The notes under the pieces: generated by a model
What the model was told of the DNA's origin: nothing
Database searches by the model: none
What the model saw: the letters and a program-made list of their open reading frames with translations, nothing else
From: Elusimicrobiota bacterium
GTDB taxonomy: Bacteria; Elusimicrobiota; JBDRON01
Assembly: GCA_043810025.1 (NCBI GenBank)
Contig: JBDRON010000053.1
Span: forward strand, 462 to 64,461
DNA length: 64,000 nucleotides
Direction: 5' to 3'
Shown here: positions 13,067-25,834 of the stretch, piece by piece
How positions within the stretch are numbered: the stretch's first letter is position 1
Layout: each line of letters opens with the position of its first letter
Position numbers and translations under genes: made by a program

Positions 13067-13678
13067 ATGTTAACCAAAAAAGAAATTGATACGATTAAAC
13101 ATATTCGAAACTTTCTTGTTCACGAGGGCGAAATGCCGACCTACCGTAAACTTATGGCGGCTTTGGGCTACAAATCTCCGCGGTCAGTTACTTTGTTGGT
13201 TAATCAACTAATTAAGAAAAAAATATTAAAGAAAACTTCTAATGGAAGAATACGGATGTTAAATTACTCGGAAGAGAATAACGGCCAGGCCCAAACAATA
13301 AGCGTTCCTTTGCTCGGGCGGATAGCCTGCGGCCGGCCTTTGCTGGCCGAAGAAAATATCGAAGGAATGATCCCTGTTTCGATTAAGTTAGCCCGTCTGC
13401 CGCACAAATATTTTTTGTTAAAAACCAAAGGTGATTCCATGAATGAAAAAGGAATCAATGACGGCGATTTGGTTTTGGTCAGACAGCAGAATACGGCAAA
13501 CAACGGGGACTTAGTTGTTGCTTTAATTGATGGAGAATCAACAATAAAAGAATTCATCAAGTCGGAAGGCGCAATTATCTTGAAACCCCGTTCCTCAAAC
13601 AAGAACCACAAACCGATTATTTTGACCCAAGATTTTCAAATCCAGGGGATTGTCGTTTCAGTGATAAAAGGATTGTAG
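13067..13678 (+). CDS. lexA: LexA repressor (S24 peptidase)
   Basis: N-terminal winged HTH. C-terminal autocleavage module with the catalytic Ser in GDSM and the Lys ([14 protein letters not shown]). Confidence 0.9.
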
Positions 13679-13748
13679 GATTGCCGGGTGTGCCAAAATT
13701 ATTAGACAGCAAAAAGGGAAAAAAATACAAAAATTGATAGGAGGGGGT

Positions 13749-14252
13749 ATGTCGAATAATATTTTTGAACAGATCAAGAAAGTTAACGAGTATGGCCAAG
13801 AGTACTGGAGCGCCAGAGCTCTCTGTACATTATTAGGATATACCGAATATGGTAAATTTCTGCCGGCGATAGAAAGAGCTAAAGAATCTTGCAAAAACAG
13901 CGGGCAAAAGATTGATGATCATTTCGCTGGCGTGAGCGATATGATAACTATCGCTACCGGGACCCCCAAAGAAACTCAGCGGCCTGTAGATAACTATCGT
14001 CTTTCCCGGTATGCCTGTTACCTGATTGCGCAAAACGGAGATCCTCGTAAAGAAGAGATAGCAATAGCTCAAACTTACTTCGCAATTCAAACACGGAAAC
14101 AGGAAGTTCACCAACAGCTAATCGAAGATAATAAGCGCGTACATCTGCGCAATGAAATGAAAACGCATAATAAACAGTTAGCTCAAGCGGCCAAAGAAGC
14201 CGGTGTAATTAATTATGCTAATTTTCAGGACTACGGATATTTGGGAGGGTAA
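13749..14252 (+). CDS. DNA-damage-inducible protein D (DinD) family, truncated paralog (N-terminal two-thirds only)
   Basis: Matches E. coli DinD from the FWSAR motif through NKQL..AGV ([13 protein letters not shown]...[16 protein letters not shown]...[12 protein letters not shown]) but stops after about 170 aa. ATG at 13749 with a GGAGGGGG RBS. Lies 70 bp downstream of lexA. Confidence 0.8.
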
Positions 14253-14255
14253 ACA

Positions 14256-15113
14256 ATGAGTCATTTAATAGCAAAAGAATATAAATCATTTGAAGAGATA
14301 AAGCATCTTTCGGAGGATGGCCATGAATTTTGGTATGCCCGTGAGCTGGCCATGGTACTTGAATATGTGCAATGGCGTAATTTCGTGAAAGTTTTGGAAA
14401 GGGCAATGCTTGCTTGCAAAAACAGCGGGTATGCGGTTCTGGATCATTTTGCTGAGGTCAGCAAAACGATAAATATGCCTAAAACTGCTACTAAAGAAGT
14501 TGTTGATTTTAGACTCACTCGGTATGCCTGTTATTTAATTGTTCAAAATGGAGACCCACGAAAAGAAGTTATTGCATTGGGGCAAACCTATTTTGCCATT
14601 CAAACCAGGCGGCAGGAAGTAGCCGATTACTTTAATCAACTTGATGAGGATAACAAGCGTTTGGTAATAAGGGGCGATATTAAGCAATGGAACCAGATGC
14701 TTGCCGAGGCCGCTCACAATGCGGGTGTTATGAGCGATGAGGAATATGCCGCTTTTCAGAATGCTGGTTATATGGGGTTGTATGGCGGAATGAAGGTCGA
14801 GGATATTCATAAAAAAAAGGGGATAAGGAAAAACGACCGGGTTCTTGACTTTATGAGCAGTACAGAGTTAATTGCAAATTTATTTAGAATATCTCAGACT
14901 GAAGAAAAATTAAAAAAAGATACAACAGCAACTGCTGATGCTGCTAATGAAATACATTTTATCGTTGGGAAAGAGGTTCGAGGCACGATTGAACGAGTGG
15001 GCGGCACAATGCCGGAAGATTTGCCCACTCCAGACAAAAGTATCAGTGATGTTGAGCGAAAACAGTTAAAAAAACTTAAAAATTCTCCAAAAAAATTAAT
15101 GCTTGATGAATGA
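14256..15113 (+). CDS. dinD: DNA-damage-inducible protein D (DinD) family, full length
   Basis: Collinear with E. coli DinD over its whole length, including the C-terminal STELIANLFRISQTEEKLKK...GTMPEDLPTP. RBS lies within the 3' end of the upstream paralog. Confidence 0.85.
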   Translation: MSHLIAKEYKSFEEIKHLSEDGHEFWYARELAMVLEYVQWRNFVKVLERAMLACKNSGYAVLDHFAEVSKTINMPKTATKEVVDFRLTRYACYLIVQNGDPRKEVIALGQTYFAIQTRRQEVADYFNQLDEDNKRLVIRGDIKQWNQMLAEAAHNAGVMSDEEYAAFQNAGYMGLYGGMKVEDIHKKKGIRKNDRVLDFMSSTELIANLFRISQTEEKLKKDTTATADAANEIHFIVGKEVRGTIERVGGTMPEDLPTPDKSISDVERKQLKKLKNSPKKLMLDE

Positions 15114-15342
15114 TGAGCAACTGGAATGAGGTCGTTCGTGGTCAATATTGAACCGCAATCAGGAAAAACTGTGGTGTCCAGCGATAATTTTCTTGGTGAG
15201 AAAAAGAGAAAACAGCTAGATTAAATACTTCCGATTGACTTGACAATATTTAACTAATAAAATGCTTTATATTATTGCATAAAGTAGCCAGAAAATCGGG
15301 AGTCTTCCTTCAATTAAGAAATTAAATAGAAAGAGGTGTTGA

Positions 15343-15633
15343 ATGCAGAATTTGCTTAACGAATTAACCGAACTGCTGGCCAAAGATGAACGGCTTGTTG
15401 TTGAAGGGAAGCTGCTAAAGAATAAAATCATTGAGCTTGCTCTGGGGATGGATGCGGACTTAATCAAGCTTCTCTTGAAAAACAAAAGCATTAAGAAGCA
15501 TTTTTTTGCAGAAGCGGGAGATGTGCTTGTTTTCGATAAAATCAAATTTCAGCATTTCGTTTCCAATAAAGAATTTCTCCCCGACAGTTACACCGCTTTT
15601 AAGAATAAGATCGGCCTGATGAACGAACGATAA
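15343..15633 (+). pseudogene. N-terminal remnant of a restriction-modification-type DNA methyltransferase (Mod-like)
   Basis: The 96-aa ORF ...KKHFFAEAGDVLVFDKIKFQHFVSNKEFLPDSYTAFKNKIGL resembles the N-terminal leader of type III/IIG adenine methyltransferases. No catalytic domain follows. Assigned from recalled similarity only. Confidence 0.3.
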
Positions 15634-16154: not shown

Positions 16155-18647
16155 ATGAATAATCTACAGAAATGTATTGCTCATCGCGGAAAAAATGGTT
16201 CAATACAAACCCTTGAATGTCATCTGGAGGAAGTATCTGATAAAACAGGTAAATTTGCTGCGAAGATTGGATTAAAAGAACAGGGAGAATTGATAGGCCT
16301 TTTACATGATATCGGAAAAGCAAGCGAGGAATTTCAGAGATATATTCAATCGGCAACAGGTTTGATCAATTCTGATGAAGACGATTATGTTGATACATCA
16401 GGGATGAAAGGTAAAATTGACCATTCCAGTGCTGGGGCACAAATAATTGCGCGGCACCTTTTAGATAAAGGGAACGAGACTGTTTTTGCCAAACAGTTAT
16501 TATCATTGTGCATTGCGTCTCACCATTCAGGGCTAATTAATTGTATCGCACCTGATGGTACCGATGTGTATTCAAAAAGAATGTCAAAACCGACGGACAA
16601 AACTCATTTTGATGAAATATATTCGAAGATTGATGATGCGCAACGCAAGAGAATAGAACAAGCATTACAATCAAAGGATATTACCAAAACTTTAAAAGAT
16701 CAGCTTAATAATTTGTGTGAAAAAAACAGGGATTCAAAAGAAACATTGATGTTCAAATATGGTTTGATGGTACGGTTTCTTTATAGTTGTCTAATAGATG
16801 CTGACCGATTAAGTACAGCTGATTTTGATTATCCGGCAACAGCAAAAATCAGAAATAACGGTAACTATATTTCTTGGAGCGAATTGATTAAACGATTCAG
16901 AGTGAAATTACGAAGCTTTAAGGGCAAAAAAAATACAATTGACAAATTGCGGCAGAATGTATCAGACCACTGCCGTGAATTTGCCGATAAACCGAAAGGT
17001 CTGTATCAATTAACCGTCCCGACTGGCGGAGGAAAAACACTGTCCAGCCTGCGTTTTGCGTTGCATCACGCCCAAGCGCATGGGATGGACAGGATAATGT
17101 ATGTTTTGCCCTACACAACCATAATAGACCAGAATGCCGATGAAGTTAGGCAGATTCTTGAAGATAAAGATGAGACCGGAAAATACGCTGGGCGGGTTGT
17201 TCTGGAACATCATTCAAACCTAACTCCCGATGAAGAAACTGTACAACAAAAAGTACTTGCCGAAGATTGGGATGCCCCAGTAGTCTTTACGACTGTTGTA
17301 CAGGTTTTGGATGCCTTGTTCGGTTCAGGAACGCAGACTGCGCGCCGTATGCACCAGCTGGCAGATGCAGTGATAATATTTGATGAAGTCCAATCTCTTC
17401 CTATTAAATGCGTTCAAATGTTTAACTTGGCGATCAGATTTTTAGTTCATAACTGCGGCTCAACAGTTGTGCTTTGTACGGCTACCCAACCGCTTTTAAA
17501 TCAAATAAAGCCGGAATCCAGGGCTTTGACGATTGCTCCTAATCAACAGATAATACCAGACATTCAAAAACTATTCAAGGATTTAAAACGTGTTAAAGTT
17601 ATTGATCGATGTAGAGTTGAGAAATGGAACTTAACCGATATAAAAATATTGATTGCCCAAGAACTAAAAATAGCAGGCAGTGTTTTAGTAATAGTGAACA
17701 CAAAGAAAGCGGCAAGAGAAATTTATCAGCAATGCAATAACGATATGCAAGCAAAAGTATATCATTTAAGCACTTATATGTGTCCGGCGCATCGTACGGA
17801 GAAATTGAGAGAAATAACAGCAGGTTTAGAAAATTTAAAGAATAACGAACCGAATAAAGAGCCGATTATTTGCGTAAGCACTCAGCTTATTGAGGCGGGT
17901 GTTGATATTGATTTTGGAGCGGTCATTCGTTCGCTGGCCGGTCTTGATTCTATGGCGCAAGCCGCTGGCCGGTGCAACAGACATAATGAACGAGGTGAAC
18001 CTGGCAGAGTTACAATAATAAATCCGGTAAACGAAAATATTGATGAAATAAAAGAAATTAGGATCGGGAGAGAAAAGGCCGAACGCGTTCTTGGCGAATA
18101 TAAAAAGAACCCCGATATTTTTGATAGAGATATTCTAGGACACAAAGCAATAGAATGTTATTATCAGTATTATTTTTATGACAGAACAAATGACATGAAT
18201 TATCCCGTCAGCAGTAAGTCAGTTGTAAAAAGAAATGACAATTTGTTCATTTTGCTTTCCACAAATACGACTTCTATTGGAGAGTATAAGCGTATCAATA
18301 AAGTATTTCCAGCAATCCCTTTAAGATACTCGTTTATGGCGGCAGCAAAAACTTTTAATGTAATTGATTCGCCCGCGCGTGGTATTGTTGTGCCTTACGG
18401 ACAAATGGGACGGGAAATAATCAACAAACTTTGTTCCGCGTTCGATATTGAGAAACAATACCTTCTTATAAAGGAGGCACAACGATATTCTGTAAATTTA
18501 TTTGAAAATGATTTAAAGAAATTGGGTTGTGCTGTTTGTGAAGTTCAAAAAGGGTCAGGGATTTTATATCTTGACGAGCGTTATTACAGCGATGACTTTG
18601 GGATAAGTGAAAAACCGGTAAACGAGATGGGGTTACTAAACCGCTGA
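16155..18647 (+). CDS. cas3: Cas3 HD-nuclease/helicase, type I-C
   Basis: N-terminal HD motifs (H..HDIGK, SHHSG). DEAD/DEAH helicase motifs (GGGKT, DEVQ). C-terminal domain. 830 aa. Confidence 0.92.
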   Translation: MNNLQKCIAHRGKNGSIQTLECHLEEVSDKTGKFAAKIGLKEQGELIGLLHDIGKASEEFQRYIQSATGLINSDEDDYVDTSGMKGKIDHSSAGAQIIARHLLDKGNETVFAKQLLSLCIASHHSGLINCIAPDGTDVYSKRMSKPTDKTHFDEIYSKIDDAQRKRIEQALQSKDITKTLKDQLNNLCEKNRDSKETLMFKYGLMVRFLYSCLIDADRLSTADFDYPATAKIRNNGNYISWSELIKRFRVKLRSFKGKKNTIDKLRQNVSDHCREFADKPKGLYQLTVPTGGGKTLSSLRFALHHAQAHGMDRIMYVLPYTTIIDQNADEVRQILEDKDETGKYAGRVVLEHHSNLTPDEETVQQKVLAEDWDAPVVFTTVVQVLDALFGSGTQTARRMHQLADAVIIFDEVQSLPIKCVQMFNLAIRFLVHNCGSTVVLCTATQPLLNQIKPESRALTIAPNQQIIPDIQKLFKDLKRVKVIDRCRVEKWNLTDIKILIAQELKIAGSVLVIVNTKKAAREIYQQCNNDMQAKVYHLSTYMCPAHRTEKLREITAGLENLKNNEPNKEPIICVSTQLIEAGVDIDFGAVIRSLAGLDSMAQAAGRCNRHNERGEPGRVTIINPVNENIDEIKEIRIGREKAERVLGEYKKNPDIFDRDILGHKAIECYYQYYFYDRTNDMNYPVSSKSVVKRNDNLFILLSTNTTSIGEYKRINKVFPAIPLRYSFMAAAKTFNVIDSPARGIVVPYGQMGREIINKLCSAFDIEKQYLLIKEAQRYSVNLFENDLKKLGCAVCEVQKGSGILYLDERYYSDDFGISEKPVNEMGLLNR

Positions 18648-18664: not shown

Positions 18665-19393
18665 ATGGAAAAAGAAAACAAAGCAGAGTTCAAAGTATCA
18701 GGCAAGTATGCACTTTTTACCGACCCGCTTACAAAAATTGGCGGAGAAAAATGTTCTTATCATATTCCCACTTATGAGGCATTGAAAGGAATCATTAGTT
18801 CTGTATACTGGAAACCGACTATTGTTTGGATTATTGATAAGATCAGAGTTGTTAGCCGCATACGCACTCAGACCAGAAGCACAAAACCGCTTGATTTTAA
18901 CGGCGGCAATTCTCTTGCTATTTATACTTATCTTGCTGATGTGGAATACCAGGTACAGGCGCATTTTGAGTGGAACTTACATCGTCCTGATTTGGAAAAA
19001 GATAGAAACGAGAATAAACATTTTTTTGTTGCACGGCGCATGATAGAAAAAGGCGGTAGGAGGGATATTTTTTTAGGTGCCCGGGAATGTCAAGGATATG
19101 TAGAACCATGCAAATTCGGCGAGGGTAAAGGTGATTATGATGGTTATGGTGAGTTGGCTTTTGATTTGATGTTTCATGGTTTTGATTACCCTGATGAATC
19201 GGGTAAAGACGAGCTTTATGCGAGATTTTGGAAAAACATCAAAATGATAGATGGTGTAGTTAAGTTTCCGTATCCAGGGGAATGCACGATTAGAAAATTT
19301 GTAAGGCCGATGAAAGCCCAGACTATGCAAACAAGCGGATTAAAAGAAGAGGGGTTGCTTGAAAGTTATGTTGAGTCGGAGGTGGCGCAATGA
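18665..19393 (+). CDS. cas5: Cas5c (Cas5d) type I-C
   Basis: 242 aa. Conserved Cas5c N-terminus (KVSGKYALFTDP...SYHIPTYEALKGI). Confidence 0.9.
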   Translation: MEKENKAEFKVSGKYALFTDPLTKIGGEKCSYHIPTYEALKGIISSVYWKPTIVWIIDKIRVVSRIRTQTRSTKPLDFNGGNSLAIYTYLADVEYQVQAHFEWNLHRPDLEKDRNENKHFFVARRMIEKGGRRDIFLGARECQGYVEPCKFGEGKGDYDGYGELAFDLMFHGFDYPDESGKDELYARFWKNIKMIDGVVKFPYPGECTIRKFVRPMKAQTMQTSGLKEEGLLESYVESEVAQ

Positions 19394-21552
19394 GTTGGAT
19401 CCACAGATTGTATGAGACTTATGAAAACTGCCGCGCAATGATTGGTAAAATAGAGGATGATAGTAAAGTACCGCTTCTGCCGATATGCCACACAACGCAA
19501 AAAGCTCAGATTGAAATTATCATTGATGAGAAAGGTAATTTCCAACGCGCACGGCTCGTTCCAAGAGAACAGGCGAGAACCATTATCCCCTGTACCGAAG
19601 CGTCCGGTGGACGCACCAGGGGCGAAGCCCCTCATCCTTTGTGCGATAAATTGCAATATATTGCGGCCGATTTTAAGAAATTTACTGGCGAGGATTCGTA
19701 TTACTTTGCCATGATTGCTGAAGATGATTTTAAAACATTTGGAAAGAAAGATGAGTTGAAGTATTTGATTGAAGGGCTGCACAAGAGCGGTTATATTGAT
19801 AACGCTGGAATAATTCAATCAAGTTTTAATGTACTGAATAATGTCCATGAGCTACATATAGATAAATCATGGGAAAAGAAAAAAGATAAAATCTATGGAA
19901 AACTACTTGAGAAAAATAATAAAGCTTACAGTAACCTTTTGTCTGATTGGTGTAAACCTGAGCATGCACATCGGAAGGCTACGGCTGTTTTTAAATATGT
20001 TCAAAAAGGCGGTGTCATCAAGGATTTAATTGATCATAAAATATTGCATGTTGATGCTGATGGAATATTGCTAAAAAAACGGGCGGAAAAGAAGGACGGT
20101 GAGGTAAAAGACATTTTTGATTTGCTTCCGGGAAGAGAAAACAAAAAAAATGGTAAATTTGAAAATTGGCAGGCGGATGCTTTTATCCGCTGGGAAGTTG
20201 AAATACCAAATGATGTTTGTTCGAAAGCATGGGAAGACAAAACATTGCGGGATAGCTGGATTAAGTTTTATTCAGGAACAAAACAGAATAAAATACTTTG
20301 TTATGTGACAGGCGAAAAACAATTTCCTGCCGATCAGCATCCAGCTAAGTTAAGAAATGATGGAGATAAGGCGAAGCTGATTTCTTCCAATGATTTGTCA
20401 GGGTTTACTTTTCGCGGGCGGTTCACAGAGGCTGAACAGGTTTGTGCTATTGGTTTTGAAGTGACTCAAAAATCTCACAGTGCGTTGCGATGGCTTATCA
20501 GCCGGCAGGGCAATGTTTTTTTTGAAGGGAAAGGTATTAATAAAAAACCGAAATTAACTATCGTAGCTTGGTCAACTGTAGGAAAGCAGATACCAAAGCC
20601 AATGGATGATTCTTTTGACATGTTGGGTGTTTGTGAATTGGTTAGTGATGAAAAGGAAGTTGCTGCTACTGCTCAGTACCTCGCGTTAAAATTGAAGAAA
20701 AAAATCGCGGGATACAAAGCAGATTTGGGCACAACTGATTCTATTGTTGTCATGGGGCTTGATTCTGCGACACCAGGCCGCATGGCAATAACATATTACC
20801 GTGAATTGACAGGTTCAGATTTTCTTGATCGTTTAGACCACTGGCATGAATCCTGCGCATGGATTCACGATTACCATTTCGTTGAAGAAAAGTATATCCG
20901 GTTTGTCGGTGCGCCTGCGCCAAAGGATATAGCTGAGGCAGCCTACGGAAGCAAATCTGATGATAAATTAAAGAAGACTACCGTTGAACGTCTTCTGCCG
21001 TGCATTATAGAAGGCCGTCCGCTTCCCAGAGATATTGTGGAGTCAGCTGTTAGAACGGCTTGTAAACGCTTGGCCATGGATGAATGGAAGTGGAACAAAA
21101 CTCTAAGTATTGCTTGTGCATTATACAAAAAATATTGCGAAAAGGAGGATTACATTATGTCGTTAGAACATGAGCGTAAAACAAGAGATTATTTGTATGG
21201 GAGATTGCTTGCCGCTGCGGACTGCATGGAGAAATTCGCGTTGTTTATTTCTGAAAAAAAGCGTGACACGAACTCCGCGAGATTGATGCAGCGTTTTTCC
21301 GATCGTCCTTGTAGTACATGGAAAATTATAGAACTTTCTTTAGCATCCTATAAAGCGAGACTGGGCGGTAGAGCAAAGAAATACACTGATGTTATTGATG
21401 CGGTTATGAATAAGTTCGACCCACCAGAAGATTTTATAAGTGATAAACCATTGAGCGGTGAATTTTTGTTGGGATATCATTGCCAGAGAGAAAATTTGAA
21501 ACCAAAGAAGGACGAACCGGAAAGCGTAGAGGATGCCGTTGTAGTGGAATAA
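19390..21552 (+). CDS. cas8c: Cas8c (Csd1) large subunit, type I-C
   Basis: 720 aa, in the cas5-cas8c-cas7 position. Start overlaps the cas5 stop. Confidence 0.85.
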   Translation: MSWIHRLYETYENCRAMIGKIEDDSKVPLLPICHTTQKAQIEIIIDEKGNFQRARLVPREQARTIIPCTEASGGRTRGEAPHPLCDKLQYIAADFKKFTGEDSYYFAMIAEDDFKTFGKKDELKYLIEGLHKSGYIDNAGIIQSSFNVLNNVHELHIDKSWEKKKDKIYGKLLEKNNKAYSNLLSDWCKPEHAHRKATAVFKYVQKGGVIKDLIDHKILHVDADGILLKKRAEKKDGEVKDIFDLLPGRENKKNGKFENWQADAFIRWEVEIPNDVCSKAWEDKTLRDSWIKFYSGTKQNKILCYVTGEKQFPADQHPAKLRNDGDKAKLISSNDLSGFTFRGRFTEAEQVCAIGFEVTQKSHSALRWLISRQGNVFFEGKGINKKPKLTIVAWSTVGKQIPKPMDDSFDMLGVCELVSDEKEVAATAQYLALKLKKKIAGYKADLGTTDSIVVMGLDSATPGRMAITYYRELTGSDFLDRLDHWHESCAWIHDYHFVEEKYIRFVGAPAPKDIAEAAYGSKSDDKLKKTTVERLLPCIIEGRPLPRDIVESAVRTACKRLAMDEWKWNKTLSIACALYKKYCEKEDYIMSLEHERKTRDYLYGRLLAAADCMEKFALFISEKKRDTNSARLMQRFSDRPCSTWKIIELSLASYKARLGGRAKKYTDVIDAVMNKFDPPEDFISDKPLSGEFLLGYHCQRENLKPKKDEPESVEDAVVVE

Positions 21553-21582: not shown

Positions 21583-22524
21583 ATGTCGGAAAACAAGTCA
21601 GAGTCTTTGAAAAACAAAATTGATTTTGCAGTAGTGTTTGGTGTTAAAAATGCGAATCCTAATGGTGATCCGCTTAATGGGAACAGACCACGGGTGAATT
21701 ATGATGGTTACGGAGAGGTTTCAGATGTTTGTATAAAGAGAAAAATCAGAAATCGTCTCAAAGATTTGGGATGCAAGATTTTTGTGCAATCCGATGACAA
21801 TCGGGATGATGATTGCCGTAGTCTTAAAGAGAGGGCAGACAAGATACTCGCTGATGTTATGGGTGACGAGAAGAAATTGCGTGAAAAGGCATGCGCAGAA
21901 TGGATTGATGTTAGGGCGTTTGGACAATTGTTTGCTTTTAAAGCTGATAAAAAAAGCAAAAAAATTAAGAAAAATTCCGAAGTTGAAACTGAATCTCAAG
22001 AGTCTGGTGTTTCCATCGGAATTAGAGGTCCTGTTTCTATTCATTCAGCATTTAGCGTTATTAGCGTAAATGATCGTGTGGAGAGTATTCAAATCGTAAA
22101 GAGTGTTAGTGGAGAAGGAGATGGTAGTAAGCGTGGTTCCGATACTATGGGGATGAAACACCGTGTTGATCATGGCGTATATGTATTTTTTGGAACCATG
22201 AACACTCAGCTTGCCAGTAAAACTGGGTTTAGTGATAGTGATGCAGAATCAATTAAGAAGGCATTGCAAAGTATGTTCCAAAATGATGCATCGTCTGCAC
22301 GGCCTGACGGAAGCATGGAGATATTGAAAGTTGTCTGGTGGAAGCACAATTGTCCGCATGGCCAATACTCATCTGCACAGGTTCACCGGTCATTAAAAGT
22401 AGAGGTTAAAAAAGATGTCGTTGATCCAAAAAGTTTTGATGATTATGATATTAAAGTTGACGATCAGAAAACACCGGGTTTGGAGTACAAACCTCTATTA
22501 GATGGGGCTATCTTTGTGAACTAA
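21583..22524 (+). CDS. cas7: Cas7 (Csd2) type I-C backbone subunit
   Basis: 313 aa. N-terminal FAVVFGVKNANPNGDPLNGNRPR motif typical of Csd2. Confidence 0.9.
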   Translation: MSENKSESLKNKIDFAVVFGVKNANPNGDPLNGNRPRVNYDGYGEVSDVCIKRKIRNRLKDLGCKIFVQSDDNRDDDCRSLKERADKILADVMGDEKKLREKACAEWIDVRAFGQLFAFKADKKSKKIKKNSEVETESQESGVSIGIRGPVSIHSAFSVISVNDRVESIQIVKSVSGEGDGSKRGSDTMGMKHRVDHGVYVFFGTMNTQLASKTGFSDSDAESIKKALQSMFQNDASSARPDGSMEILKVVWWKHNCPHGQYSSAQVHRSLKVEVKKDVVDPKSFDDYDIKVDDQKTPGLEYKPLLDGAIFVN

Positions 22525-22646
22525 TGTCCGTATATAATGTTTTCCAAAGACGACTTGCTCTCAATATCCAGCCTGCAACATATCATTTTCTGTTTCCGGC
22601 AGTGCATGATACATTTCAATCGTCTTGGAAGAAAGGAGTGATTTTT

Positions 22647-23477
22647 ATGCAAACAGACGCAAAAATTGCCATTTTTAAAGGTAAAAAAATCAGGAAAGCT
22701 TTGCATAACAACGAATGGTGGTTTTCGGTGGTAGATGTTGTTGAAGCGCTTACCGACAGCGCAGATGCCGGCGCCTATTGGCGAAAATTAAAACAGCGGT
22801 TAAAAGAGGAAGGAAGCGAGGTCGTGACATTTTGTCACGGACTGAAATTGCCTGCTGCCGATGGGAAACAATACGAAACCGATTGCGCTGATACTGAGGG
22901 GATCTTCCGCCTTATCCAATCCATTCCTTCCCCCAAAGCCGAGCCGTTTAAACGTTGGCTGGCTAAAGTGGGTTATGAGCGCGTTCAGGAGATAGAAAAT
23001 CCGGAGCTGGCCACAAAAAGAACCCGCATGCTTTACAAGCTCAAGGGATACAGCGAGGATTGGATTGAAAAGCGTCTGCGGGGTATCGCTATCCGCGCCG
23101 AACTTACTGATGAATGGCAGAACCGTGGGGCGGAAGAAGATAAAGATTTTGAGATTCTGACCGCGGAAATATCCAAAGCGGCTTTTGGCATCACTCCTTC
23201 CCAGTATAAAGAGCTTAAAGGGCTTCAGCGGGAAAACCTGCGCGATCATATGGATGATTTTGAATTGATCTTTACGATGTTGGGAGAGCGCTCTACTACG
23301 GAGATTCATCGTAATGAGGACTCGCGCGGGGTAAGCAAGTTGATGAAAGATGCCGGCGCCGGTGGAAAAATTGCCGGTGACGCCCGGAAGGCTTTGGAAA
23401 AACGGCTGAAAAGGCCGATTGTTTCCGGGCATAATTATTTGCAGGAAAAAGAGTCGCAGAAAAAAATTAGGAATTAG
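22647..23477 (+). CDS. DinD/Bro-N family (antirepressor-like) protein embedded in the cas operon
   Basis: The N-terminus KIRKALHNNEWWFSVVDVVEALTD is a Bro-N/DinD-type motif. The C-terminus (KGLQRENLRDHMDDFELIFTMLGERSTTEIHRNE...GGKIAGDARKALEKRL) is collinear with the DinD C-terminus seen at 14256-15113. ATG at 22647 with an AAAGGAG RBS. The listed ORF start at 22524 is upstream read-through. Confidence 0.75.
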   Translation: MQTDAKIAIFKGKKIRKALHNNEWWFSVVDVVEALTDSADAGAYWRKLKQRLKEEGSEVVTFCHGLKLPAADGKQYETDCADTEGIFRLIQSIPSPKAEPFKRWLAKVGYERVQEIENPELATKRTRMLYKLKGYSEDWIEKRLRGIAIRAELTDEWQNRGAEEDKDFEILTAEISKAAFGITPSQYKELKGLQRENLRDHMDDFELIFTMLGERSTTEIHRNEDSRGVSKLMKDAGAGGKIAGDARKALEKRLKRPIVSGHNYLQEKESQKKIRN

Positions 23478-23481
23478 CTTA

Positions 23482-24036
23482 ATGTATTCTGAAAACGACT
23501 TGCTATATATTTCCGCTCTGCAGCATTTTGTCTTTTGCCGGCGGCAGTGCGCCCTCATTCATATCGAGCAGTCGTGGGTGGAGAACCGCTTTACCGCCGA
23601 GGGCCGGGTGATGCACGAAAATGTGCATGAGTTGGGCAGGGAAAACCGCAAGGATGTGCGCAACAATCTTTGGGTTCCCTTTCCGGTAGAGTATAAACGG
23701 GGCAAGCCTAAAACAAATAATTGCGACAAAGCGCAGCTCTGCGCTCAGGCGATCTGTCTGGAAGAAATGATGAATACGCAGATCCCTTCAGGCGCGTTGT
23801 TCTATGGAAAAACACGGCGCCGGCTGGATGTTGAATTTACCGAAGAACTGCGCAAGGAGACTGAAGAAATTTCACAAGCTTTGCATGAATTCATTAAAGC
23901 GGAAAAAACACCGATCGCGCTGTATGAAGAAAAATGCGATACCTGTTCGTTAAAAGAACTTTGTCTGCCGGAAACTTCCGGTGGAAATCCGAATACGGTA
24001 AAAAATTATATTTTTCGGGCCACGGAAGAAAAATGA
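23482..24036 (+). CDS. cas4: Cas4 (RecB-like nuclease with Fe-S cysteines)
   Basis: Begins MYSENDLLYISALQHFVFCRRQCAL. C-terminal CDTCSLKELC cysteine cluster. 4-nt overlap with cas1. Confidence 0.85.
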   Translation: MYSENDLLYISALQHFVFCRRQCALIHIEQSWVENRFTAEGRVMHENVHELGRENRKDVRNNLWVPFPVEYKRGKPKTNNCDKAQLCAQAICLEEMMNTQIPSGALFYGKTRRRLDVEFTEELRKETEEISQALHEFIKAEKTPIALYEEKCDTCSLKELCLPETSGGNPNTVKNYIFRATEEK

Positions 24037-25034
24037 AAAAATATCTCAATACGCTTTTTATCACTACCCAGGGCGCCTATCTTTCCAAGGAAGGAGAAAC
24101 CATTGTCGTAAGCGTGGAGCATGAGACTAAGCTTCAGCTGCCCGTTCATACGATCGGGGGAATCGTCTGCTTCGGCCAGGTTTTGATCAGCCCGCCGTTA
24201 ATGGGTTTTTGCGCAGAAAACAGTGTTTCCATCACTTACATCAATGAATACGGGAAATTTCTGGCCAGCATTAACGGCCGGACTTCCGGCAATGTTCTTC
24301 TCCGGCGCGAACAATACCGCTGGGCTGATGCCCCGGATCGCTCGTCACAGATTGCCAGGAATATCTTGATCGGTAAAATAGCCAACTGCCGCTCCGTGCT
24401 TCAGCGCGCGCTCAGGGACCACGAAGGCCGGATCGAAAGCGAAAAACTTGCCTGTGCCTCCGAACAGCTCTTTCAGGCGATTGGCAAGTTGAAAGAAAAA
24501 ACTTATGACCTGGATACCCTCCGCGGTATTGAGGGGGACTGCGCGGGATCATATTTTTCCGTTTTTGACAATCTGATTCTTGCCCAGAAAGAATCTTTCC
24601 GCTTTATTAACAGAAATCGCCGGCCGCCGATGGATAAGGTCAATTGTCTGCTTTCATTCCTCTATACGCTTTTAATGCACGATGTGCGTTCCGCGCTGGA
24701 AGCTGTTGGACTGGATTCTTATGTCGGTTTCCTTCACCGGGACAGGCCCGGAAGGCCCAGCCTTGCGCTGGATATGATGGAGGAATTCCGGCCATTTATC
24801 GCCGACAGGCTTGTTTTGTCACTGATTAACCGGGAACAGATCAATACAAAAGGTTTTAGTAAATCGGAATCAGGCGCGGTTTTGATGAATGACGATACAA
24901 GAAAAGAAGTGCTTGTTGCCTGGCAGAAAAGAAAACAGGAAGAGATTATGCACCCCTTTCTAAAAGAAAGTGACGGATCGCTTCCCAACCGGTTAAACCG
25001 TTATGGTCGCGCCCCGTGCGGGCGCGTGGATTGA
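24033..25034 (+). CDS. cas1: Cas1 integrase, type I-C; 3' end runs into CRISPR repeat 1
   Basis: Starts MKKYLNTLFITTQGAYLSKEGETIVV, the typical Cas1 N-terminus. 334 aa. The last 9 codons (GRAPCGRVD) are encoded by the first repeat. Confidence 0.88.
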   Translation: MKKYLNTLFITTQGAYLSKEGETIVVSVEHETKLQLPVHTIGGIVCFGQVLISPPLMGFCAENSVSITYINEYGKFLASINGRTSGNVLLRREQYRWADAPDRSSQIARNILIGKIANCRSVLQRALRDHEGRIESEKLACASEQLFQAIGKLKEKTYDLDTLRGIEGDCAGSYFSVFDNLILAQKESFRFINRNRRPPMDKVNCLLSFLYTLLMHDVRSALEAVGLDSYVGFLHRDRPGRPSLALDMMEEFRPFIADRLVLSLINREQINTKGFSKSESGAVLMNDDTRKEVLVAWQKRKQEEIMHPFLKESDGSLPNRLNRYGRAPCGRVD

Positions 25035-25238
25035 AACGACTAAACCTAGTAAAACAGCGTGACCCATATTGGTCGCGCCCCGTGCGGGCGCGTGGATTGA
25101 AACGGATGAAATATCGTATCGTCAAACCAACGGCCTAAGGTCGCGCCCCGTGCGGGCGCGTGGATTGAAACCCAGTTCATTTTTGCGTAGTTCGTTTCGA
25201 CGTTGGGTCGCGCCCCGTGCGGGCGCGTGGATTGAAAC
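25006..25238 (+). CRISPR. CRISPR array: 4 repeats of 32 bp (GTCGCGCCCCGTGCGGGCGCGTGGATTGAAAC) and 3 spacers of 34/36/35 bp
   Basis: Repeats at 25006-25037, 25072-25103, 25140-25171 and 25207-25238, all identical. The repeat is the typical type I-C class ending ATTGAAAC. An AT-rich flank follows at 25239-25350. Confidence 0.92.
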
Positions 25239-25350
25239 TTAGCCAGCCTTAGCGAAAAAATTGGGAAAAAAATCACTGAAATTTTCGTTGACAAAAACTT
25301 TTCTAAATTGTTAGTCTCTAAATTAATATAGATTAATTGTTTGGAGGTAA

Positions 25351-25569
<219 letters not shown>

Positions 25570-25586
25570 GTGCGCATAATCCGGTA

Positions 25587-25631
25587 TGAAATTTAAAACC
25601 GATGAAAATCTCCCTCATTTGTGGTGAAACC
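25587..25631 (+). pseudogene. decayed DUF5615-like toxin gene remnant
   Basis: Encodes MKFKTDENLPHLW then a stop. DUF5615 proteins begin M.F..DENLP. Only 13 codons remain. Confidence 0.35.
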
Positions 25632-25834
25632 GATTGATTGTGTTTTAAAGGCTCCCATTCAATCATGAAATATCCATCTCCCCAAAAATATCCTGTTGAC
25701 TGTTGCTGTTGCAAGAAAACCCTTGAGGAAAAATAAAATATTTGATAATATCAATAAGATTATTAATATCCTGTTTGAGAAATTGGTTTTTTAGAAATTT
25801 TTCAAGCAAATACTGAAAAGGAGTAAATAAACAG

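What the first reader, a model, noticed from the sequence alone, without database searches (positions are those of the whole stretch)
24033..25350. The type I-C locus lacks cas2, and the cas1 reading frame ends inside the first CRISPR repeat
Canonical I-C loci end cas4-cas1-cas2, then a leader, then the array. Here the cas1 frame runs straight into repeat 1 (25006-25037). Its last 9 codons (GRAPCGRVD plus the stop) are repeat-encoded.

No cas2-like ORF exists anywhere between cas1 and the DUF433 gene at 25354. The array has only 3 spacers. With the repeat in its usual orientation (ending ATTGAAAC), the leader would be expected upstream, where the cas1 3' end now sits.

This suggests a deletion removed the cas1 3' end, cas2 and the leader, leaving an interference-competent but adaptation-dead locus. 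An alternative is that the array is transcribed from the AT-rich region at 25239-25350 on the opposite strand.
Basis: seen in the sequence. Interest (0 to 1): 0.6.

Follow-up and report, generated by a model that had tools for sequence, protein, structure and literature searches.

The report
Decayed type I-C CRISPR adaptation module
This Elusimicrobiota chromosome carries a type I-C CRISPR-Cas locus whose spacer-acquisition genes are broken by deletions while its interference genes and a three-spacer array look intact; this is ordinary gene decay, not a new kind of system.

Summary
Four identical 32-nt repeats sit at 25006-25238, separated by three spacers. The cas1 frame (24033-25034) runs into repeat 1 and stops at a repeat-encoded TGA.

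Cas1 matches full-length I-C Cas1 (343 aa) only up to residue 313. About 30 conserved C-terminal residues are missing, and the last 20 residues are unrelated to Cas1. No Cas2 is encoded in any frame of the 64-kb window. In related loci cas2 plus a roughly 200-nt leader fill 480-530 nt between cas1 and repeat 1. Here only 34 nt lie there, and they lack the leader's conserved box at -52.

There is a new, independent lesion. Cas4 has an in-frame 27-residue deletion that removes the nuclease segment GKADVVE. Cas3, Cas5c, Cas8c and Cas7 match their family profiles end to end.

NCBI's record numbers Cas4 and the DUF433 protein consecutively, so cas1 received no protein accession.

The best reading is a deletion of at least about 0.55 kb in a decaying adaptation module. 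Interference competence through read-through transcription is plausible but untested. Transcription of the array from the opposite strand is not supported. Cas2 elsewhere in the genome and read support could not be checked. Interest is low.

The parts
16155..18647 (+). cas3 (HD nuclease plus helicase), apparently intact
   Evidence: TIGR01596 matched 1-178/178 and TIGR01587 matched 5-338/358. NCBI protein MFH1259124.1.
18665..19393 (+). cas5c, the pre-crRNA endonuclease of type I-C, apparently intact
   Evidence: TIGR01876 matched 1-203/203. Aligns to PDB 4F3M with YWKP and NxxKH conserved.
19390..21552 (+). cas8c/csd1
   Evidence: PF09709 matched 1-558/559 and TIGR01863 hit.
21583..22524 (+). 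cas7/csd2
   Evidence: TIGR02589 matched 1-279/284.
22647..23477 (+). Bro-N domain cargo gene (PADLOC candidate PDC-S13) inserted between cas7 and cas4. The ORF is open from 22524.
   Evidence: Pfam Bro-N E = 1.7e-13. PADLOC PDLC04920 E = 4e-120. Homologues lie inside 20 of 80 related I-C loci.
23482..24036 (+). cas4 with an in-frame internal deletion of 27 residues, between residues 60 and 61 (around nt 23661/23662)
   Evidence: Alignment A2 columns 61-87 are missing. This removes IERG...GKADVVEF. It matches PDB 8D3L chain I in two blocks, 4-55 to 5-56 and 64-178 to 101-213. In one search the related loci I inspected carry the extra ~25 residues in their Cas4 alignments.
24033..24971 (+). cas1 remnant: residues 1-313, homologous to I-C Cas1
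   Evidence: TIGR03640 matched 1-310/340. Homologues are 343-344 aa. PDB 8D3L Cas1 aligns along its full 343 aa to a full-length relative.
24972..25005 (+). 34-nt junction segment (S0) of unresolved origin: either the last 34 nt of the leader or a complete former spacer. It is read as Cas1 codons 314-324.
   Evidence: PWM tests conflict. It is not derived from the cas1 tail. No match in viral or metagenome contigs.
25006..25037 (+). CRISPR repeat 1. It encodes the last codons and the stop (25032-25034) of the cas1 remnant.
   Evidence: The fold is a 7-bp stem with an 11-nt 3' tail.
25038..25071 (+). spacer 1 (34 nt)
   Evidence: No protospacer found.
25072..25103 (+). repeat 2
25104..25139 (+). 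spacer 2 (36 nt)
   Evidence: No protospacer found.
25140..25171 (+). repeat 3
25172..25206 (+). spacer 3 (35 nt)
   Evidence: The only hit is a 23-nt exact match in a gut metagenome contig, without a TTC PAM, judged to be chance.
25207..25238 (+). repeat 4, the terminal repeat, identical to the others and not degenerate

Best explanation
This is a chromosomal type I-C CRISPR-Cas locus in an Elusimicrobiota MAG whose adaptation module has been inactivated by deletions.

One deletion, of at least about 0.55 kb, joined cas1 codon 313 to a point 34 nt upstream of a CRISPR repeat. It removed the last ~30 codons of cas1, all of cas2 and all or nearly all of the leader. It removed more if the 34 nt are a former internal spacer. 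The cas1 frame now reads through the 34 nt into repeat 1 and happens to meet a TGA there. The repeat-encoded tail has no function.

A second, independent in-frame 81-nt deletion removed the Cas4 segment containing GKADVVE. From my own knowledge, this carries the motif II aspartate of the RecB-type nuclease.

Shown: the truncation, the absence of cas2 from the window, the absence of the leader, the Cas4 deletion, and effector proteins that cover their family profiles.

Inferred: no new spacers can be acquired from this locus, because Cas1 and Cas2 are both required for integration. The three remaining spacers could still be expressed by read-through from the cas operon and processed by Cas5c, giving a frozen interference system.

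A corollary, also inferred: Cas5c cleavage at the base of the repeat 1 hairpin (after about 25026) would remove the stop codon from the cas1-remnant transcript.
For: Cas1 truncation.

Canonical layout in related loci: the distance from the cas1 stop to repeat 1 is 480-530 nt in most, cas2 of ~96 aa is present in 73 of 80, and all detected arrays are co-oriented.

No Cas2 in six frames of the window.

Leader: a TCGC box sits at a fixed -52/-53 in 54 of 57 related leaders and is not significantly present here.

Cas4 deletion.

Effector genes cover their profiles.

The repeat fold has an 11-nt 3' tail.

No terminator-like site lies between cas1 and the array on the + strand.

NCBI accessions run Cas4 = MFH1259129.1 then DUF433 = MFH1259130.1, so cas1 received no protein accession.

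Other degraded genes are nearby: a 96-aa type III R-M methylase fragment and what looks like a 13-codon DUF5615 toxin remnant.
Against: Only one metagenome assembly is available and no reads could be examined. No close relative exists to show the ancestral sequence (best Cas1 is 75% identical), so the breakpoints and the origin of the 34-nt segment are unresolved. The rest of the genome could not be searched, so Cas1-Cas2 supplied in trans is not excluded. No protospacer was found for any spacer, so there is no evidence of activity. crRNA expression without a leader promoter is assumed, not shown.
Confidence: 0.8

Rival explanations
1. Assembly artefact. The MAG contig mis-joins or collapses the region, and the real genome has an intact cas1-cas2-leader and a longer array.
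For: The source is a metagenome-assembled genome. CRISPR arrays are known to collapse in short-read assemblies. All four repeats, including the terminal one, are identical, as expected if array units had been collapsed.
Against: The cas1/S0 junction lies in unique sequence. The longest word shared with the rest of the window is 14 nt, which gives an assembler no repeat to jump across. A second, unrelated in-frame deletion in cas4 and other gene remnants nearby fit real decay. The contig continues through ordinary chromosomal genes on both sides.
Confidence: 0.08
2. The locus is an effector-plus-array unit that relies on Cas1-Cas2 (and Cas4) from another CRISPR-Cas locus in the same genome. Adaptation would then not be dead, only outsourced.
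For: Nothing direct. From general knowledge, genomes with several loci sharing a repeat type can share adaptation proteins.
Against: The leader, including the motif conserved at -52 in 54 of 57 related leaders, is missing. From general knowledge, polarised integration needs the leader-repeat junction. The array has only three spacers. The remnants of cas1 and cas4 show loss, not a designed absence.
Confidence: 0.1
3. The array is transcribed from the AT-rich region at 25239-25350 on the minus strand, so the true leader lies downstream and nothing has been lost on that side.
For: The region 25250-25350 is 22-28% G+C, similar to a leader.
Against: All 58 related loci in which an array was detected have it on the cas strand, with repeats ending ATTGAAAC. 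In the 57 with canonical spacing the leader lies between cas2 and repeat 1. The repeat folds with an 11-nt 3' tail on the + strand, as I recall I-C repeats do. The weak Rfam CRISPR-DR9 hits are on the + strand. The AT-rich stretch is the upstream region of the + strand DUF433 gene. No minus-strand promoter-like site lies within 25239-25350. This reading would also not explain the truncated Cas1 or the missing cas2.
Confidence: 0.02

Closest known systems
Canonical type I-C (Dvulg) CRISPR-Cas, for example Alkalihalobacillus halodurans: Cas4-Cas1-Cas2 structures 8D3L/8D3M/8D3P/8D3Q and Cas5d structure 4F3M
   Same: The gene order cas3-cas5c-cas8c-cas7-cas4-cas1 is shared. The repeat is 32 nt, ends ATTGAAAC, and has a stem-loop with an 11-nt tail. 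There is no cas6 ORF in the operon. All effector proteins pass the I-C family models.
   Different: Cas1 lacks ~30 C-terminal residues. cas2 and the leader are absent. Cas4 lacks 27 internal residues. An extra Bro-N gene sits between cas7 and cas4.
Decaying defence systems in Elusimicrobia (Endomicrobium genomovars, PMC5174739)
   Same: The phylum is the same. That paper documents pseudogenisation of CRISPR-Cas components, including a cas1 pseudogene and a split cas9 with loss of the array, and decay of R-M systems.
   Different: In that study the type I-C systems were intact and turning over spacers, and the decay affected the type II-C systems. Here the I-C adaptation module itself is the part that has decayed.
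CRISPR-Cas variants that naturally lack adaptation genes (type IV, Tn7-associated I-F3/I-B/V-K systems); this comparison rests on my own knowledge
   Same: An effector module with a short array and no working cas1-cas2.
   Different: Those systems show clean, conserved loss and a new function. Here broken remnants of cas1 and cas4 remain, cas3 is retained, and no transposon or plasmid context is visible. Nothing indicates exaptation.

Membership tests
Type I-C CRISPR-Cas effector module | cas3 (HD plus helicase), cas5c, cas8c/csd1 and cas7/csd2 present, with no cas6 | tested here: met
   All four pass the NCBIfam/Pfam I-C models with near-complete profile coverage. The only other ORF in the operon is the Bro-N gene.
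Type I-C CRISPR-Cas effector module | Cas5c residues needed for pre-crRNA cleavage (Y46, K116 and H117 of B. halodurans Cas5d; numbering from memory) | tested here: met
   The alignment to 4F3M shows YWKP and N-E-x-K-H conserved.
Type I-C CRISPR array | 32-nt repeat ending ATTGAAAC, stem-loop followed by an 11-nt tail, on the same strand as the cas genes | tested here: met
Functional I-C adaptation module (Cas4-Cas1-Cas2 plus leader) | Full-length Cas1 (~343 aa) including the conserved C-terminal ~30 residues | tested here: not met
   Homology ends at residue 313. The profile is matched at positions 1-310 of 340.
Functional I-C adaptation module (Cas4-Cas1-Cas2 plus leader) | cas2 adjacent to cas1 | tested here: not met
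   No Cas2 in six frames of the 64-kb window (best E = 0.73), against 73 of 80 related loci that have it. The rest of the genome was not searchable.
Functional I-C adaptation module (Cas4-Cas1-Cas2 plus leader) | Cas4 with a complete RecB-type nuclease core (motif II Asp in GKADVVE) | tested here: not met
   A 27-residue in-frame deletion removes this segment. The E-x-K motif and the four cysteines remain.
Functional I-C adaptation module (Cas4-Cas1-Cas2 plus leader) | AT-rich leader of ~200 nt upstream of repeat 1, with a conserved TCGC box at -52/-53 | tested here: not met
   Only 34 nt (53% G+C) lie between Cas1 homology and repeat 1. The box score is no better than that of 40% of random spacers.
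Active CRISPR immunity | Spacers matching mobile elements with a 5'-TTC PAM | tested here: inconclusive
   Six IMG/VR scans and two metagenome scans gave no credible protospacer. The scans require exact matches, so sensitivity is limited.
Active CRISPR immunity | crRNA expression | not testable with these tools
   This needs RNA data. The only findings are promoter-like sites inside cas1 and no terminator-like site before the array.

The most novel reading that the evidence does not exclude
The 34-nt segment may be a complete former spacer. The deletion would then end exactly at a repeat-spacer boundary. From my own knowledge, this is the site of the integrase's second strand-transfer reaction. 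On this reading an aberrant Cas1-Cas2 reaction nicked the array there and seeded the deletion that destroyed cas1, cas2, the leader and repeat 1.

What remains would be a stably kept, adaptation-free I-C effector with a frozen mini-array. That array would be transcribed by read-through from the cas operon, and Cas5c processing would cut the stop codon off the cas1-remnant message.
Probability: 0.08. Interest if true: 0.45.

Novelty: new member of a known kind. Interest (0 to 1): 0.17.

Why it matters
It matters little beyond annotation. The locus should be recorded as type I-C with pseudogenised cas1 and cas4 and no cas2, and it should not be counted as adaptation-competent in surveys. It is one more example of the adaptation module decaying before the effector module inside a defence island that also holds other gene remnants. 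If such frozen loci proved to be common and expressed, they would bear on how long CRISPR memory stays useful without renewal.

Tried and rejected
1. Looking up the source contig by exact protein (Cas1 with two alternative starts, Cas7, DUF433, MnmE) found no positions on record. Cluster look-up did identify the NCBI MAG and its accession order.

2. A close relative with an intact locus was sought. The best Cas1 among 5.8 billion proteins is 75% identical, and the best in GTDB genomes is 74%. The ancestral sequence is therefore unknown.

3. I tested whether S0 (24972-25005) is a leader remnant or a spacer.
- A composition-corrected leader PWM puts S0 in the top 0.25% of spacers. A PWM against a uniform background puts it below all 57 leaders.
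- GTTA at -14 to -11 favours a leader origin: 25% of leaders have it, against 0.4% of spacers.
- G+C of 0.53 favours a spacer origin. Leaders average 0.26 (maximum 0.50). The length of 34 nt is also the modal spacer length.
- The apparent TCGC box inside S0 is not significant.
The question is left unresolved.

4. MAFFT aligned S0 to the cas1 tail of relatives after a 9-nt gap. A permutation-style control with 400 real spacers showed this is no better than chance: 86% of them did as well. Rejected.

5. Protospacer searches: six viral scans gave 0 hits. The metagenome scan for S0 gave 0 hits. The S3 22-mer gave one hit, L081, a phage-like human-gut contig. It matches only 23 contiguous nt (26 of 35), has 4 of 6 mismatches at the PAM-proximal end, and its PAM is ATT. 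Rejected as chance.

6. A 14-nt match of S0 to the minus strand at 2723 does not extend (2 of 18 flanking bases match). It is chance, not self-targeting.

7. Microhomology between cas1 ...AAAGAAAGT and the repeat end ...TTGAAAC does not reproduce the observed junction sequence.

8. Rfam gave only a sub-threshold CRISPR-DR9 hit (21.6 bits against a gathering score of 45).

Full report
**What is there.** The + strand carries a type I-C operon:
- cas3, 16155-18647
- cas5c, 18665-19393
- cas8c, 19390-21552
- cas7, 21583-22524
- a Bro-N domain ORF, 22524/22647-23477
- cas4, 23482-24036
- cas1, 24033-25034

All were identified with NCBIfam and Pfam models. Directly after them come four identical 32-nt repeats, GTCGCGCCCCGTGCGGGCGCGTGGATTGAAAC, at 25006, 25072, 25140 and 25207. 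They are separated by spacers of 34, 36 and 35 nt. No further copy occurs in the window, and none is expected by chance. The cas1 frame runs through 24972-25005 into repeat 1 and stops at the TGA at 25032-25034.

**Cas1 is truncated, not naturally short.** The Cas1c model TIGR03640 is matched only at positions 1-310 of 340. Nearly all of the 120 best homologues among 5.8 billion proteins are 343-344 aa, and all cover 94% of the query. In the alignment, homology stops at ...HPFLKES (residue 313, nt 24971). The conserved tail [31 protein letters not shown] is replaced by 20 unrelated residues. A full-length relative aligns end to end with the solved I-C Cas1 of 343 aa (8D3L and related entries), so the missing part belongs to the folded protein.

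**cas2 and the leader are missing.** I fetched 80 related I-C loci from GTDB genomes.
- In 73 of them a ~96-aa cas2 follows cas1.
- Most of the 57 loci with canonical spacing have 480-530 nt between the cas1 stop and repeat 1.
- Every array detected, in 58 of the 80 loci, is on the cas strand with the same repeat orientation.
- An HMM built from those 73 Cas2 proteins finds nothing in the six-frame translation of the whole 64-kb window (best E = 0.73).
- The related leaders are AT-rich: 26% G+C in the last 34 nt. In 54 of 57 they carry a TCGC box fixed at -52/-53.

In the window only 34 nt, at 53% G+C, lie between the end of Cas1 homology and repeat 1. The distance from codon 313 to repeat 1 is roughly 580-630 nt in relatives. 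At least about 0.55 kb is therefore missing.

**A second lesion: Cas4.** Cas4 (184 aa) lacks 27 residues that are present in seven aligned relatives. The missing segment is IERGxxLRSxxLGLxGKADVVEFHxxxxG. In one search the related loci I inspected carry the extra ~25 residues in their Cas4 alignments. Against the solved I-C Cas4 (8D3L chain I) the protein aligns in two blocks, 4-55 to 5-56 and 64-178 to 101-213. The PADLOC and TIGR Cas4 models are also matched in two stretches. From my own knowledge of Cas4/RecB nucleases, the lost segment holds the motif II aspartate. The E-x-K motif and the cysteines remain. This deletion is in frame and separate from the cas1 lesion, so the adaptation module has been hit at least twice.

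**The effector side looks intact.**
- Cas3 covers its HD and helicase core models.
- Cas5c covers positions 1-203 of 203.
- Cas8c covers 1-558 of 559.
- Cas7 covers 1-279 of 284.

Cas5c aligns to B. halodurans Cas5d (4F3M) with the YWKP and N-E-x-K-H motifs conserved.

The repeat folds into a 7-bp stem with a 5-nt loop and an 11-nt 3' tail, UGGAUUGAAAC. I recall this as the standard I-C substrate.

No terminator-like site lies between cas1 and the array, and two promoter-like sites lie inside cas1. Expression of the three spacers by read-through is plausible, but it is an inference.

If Cas5c cuts at the base of the repeat 1 hairpin, the TGA of the cas1 remnant lies downstream of the cut.

**The 34-nt junction segment (24972-25005).** I could not decide whether it is the last 34 nt of the leader or a complete former spacer.
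- For a leader origin: a composition-corrected PWM of 57 related leaders puts it in the top 0.25% of 816 real spacers. It also has GTTA at -14 to -11, seen in 25% of leaders and 0.4% of spacers.
- For a spacer origin: its G+C content exceeds that of every leader. Against a uniform background it scores below all 57 leaders. Its length equals the modal spacer length of 34 nt.

An apparent alignment to the cas1 tail is no better than chance.

Either way, the conserved leader box at -52 is not present.

**Activity.** No credible protospacer was found. Six IMG/VR scans and one metagenome scan returned nothing. One 23-nt match of spacer 3 in a gut phage-like contig lacks a TTC PAM and mismatches the PAM-proximal end. 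None of the spacers, nor the 34-nt segment, has a second match in the window. These searches need exact words, so the negative result is weak.

**Source and existing annotation.** MnmE, Cas3, Cas5c, Cas8c, Cas7, Cas4, DUF433 and the DinD-like protein are all exact NCBI proteins of one Elusimicrobiota MAG contig of 73,530 nt. Cas4 is MFH1259129.1 and DUF433 is MFH1259130.1, so no protein accession was issued for cas1. I take this to mean the NCBI pipeline marked it as a pseudogene or skipped it. The flanks hold ordinary chromosomal genes: MnmE, LL-diaminopimelate aminotransferase and homoserine dehydrogenase.

**Rivals.**
- An assembly artefact cannot be excluded without reads. It is unlikely, because the junction is in unique sequence and a second, independent lesion exists in cas4.
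- Adaptation in trans from another locus cannot be tested, and would still lack a leader here.
- Opposite-strand transcription is contradicted by the array orientation in the related loci and by the repeat structure.

**Comparison and verdict.** This is a type I-C system by every effector and repeat criterion. It fails every criterion for a working adaptation module. Decay of defence systems, including CRISPR-Cas genes, has been described in Elusimicrobia (PMC5174739). Loss of adaptation genes is a familiar fate of CRISPR loci.

Noticed in passing
window 22524-23477 (probable start 22647); related loci L004, L011, L013, L014, L017, L020, L023, L025, L029, L036, L038, L048, L054, L056, L063, L064, L066, L068, L070, L077: A Bro-N domain gene sits inside the cas operon between cas7 and cas4. 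It matches PADLOC candidate PDC-S13 (E = 4e-120) and phrog_15286. Homologues, always co-oriented with the cas genes, occur in 20 of 80 related I-C loci at varying positions: cas7-cas4, cas4-cas1, or upstream of cas3. They are often more similar to the window's copy (up to 84%) than the neighbouring Cas proteins are.
   Followed up: partly
related loci L001-L080, between cas7 and cas1: The boundary between the effector and adaptation modules of these I-C loci is a hot spot for co-oriented cargo genes. Clustering of ORFs in the gap gave a Bro-N family (14 loci) and three further families of 11-12 loci each. From reading their sequences, not from a family search, these look like a four-helix-bundle (23S rRNA IVS-like) protein, a Fic/DOC protein and a RhuM-like protein. 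From my own knowledge, the same gene set is often found inside type I restriction-modification operons.
   Followed up: partly
window 13067-15633: Upstream of cas3 lie three genes. The first is a LexA-like repressor (13067-13678). The second is a DinD-like Bro-N protein (14256-15113), which hits the NCBIfam DinD equivalog, also hits PADLOC PDC-S13, and matches a type I specificity-subunit fusion model. The third is a 96-aa ORF (15343-15633) matching only the TypeIII_RM_meth domain, probably a fragment of a type III methylase.
   Followed up: partly
window 25354-25830: The DUF433 gene (25354-25569) is followed at 25576 by a 13-codon ORF, MKFKTDENLPHLW-stop. It looks like the N-terminus of the DUF5615 toxin that I recall usually pairs with DUF433. 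The rest is not readable in any frame. This appears to be another gene remnant next to the array.
   Followed up: partly
leaders of L001-L080, positions -53 to -40 relative to repeat 1: A motif close to GGTTCGC(A/G)GAAA sits with its TCGC core at -52 or -53 from the first repeat in 53 of 57 I-C leaders (54 have it between -53 and -51), drawn from many phyla. A weaker (G)TTA lies at -14 to -11. This is presumably an integration or host-factor site. I did not check it against the literature on leader motifs.
   Followed up: no
window 25207-25238: The terminal repeat is identical to the other three rather than degenerate. This is unusual for a trailer-end repeat and may mean the array has also been shortened at its distal end.
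   Followed up: no
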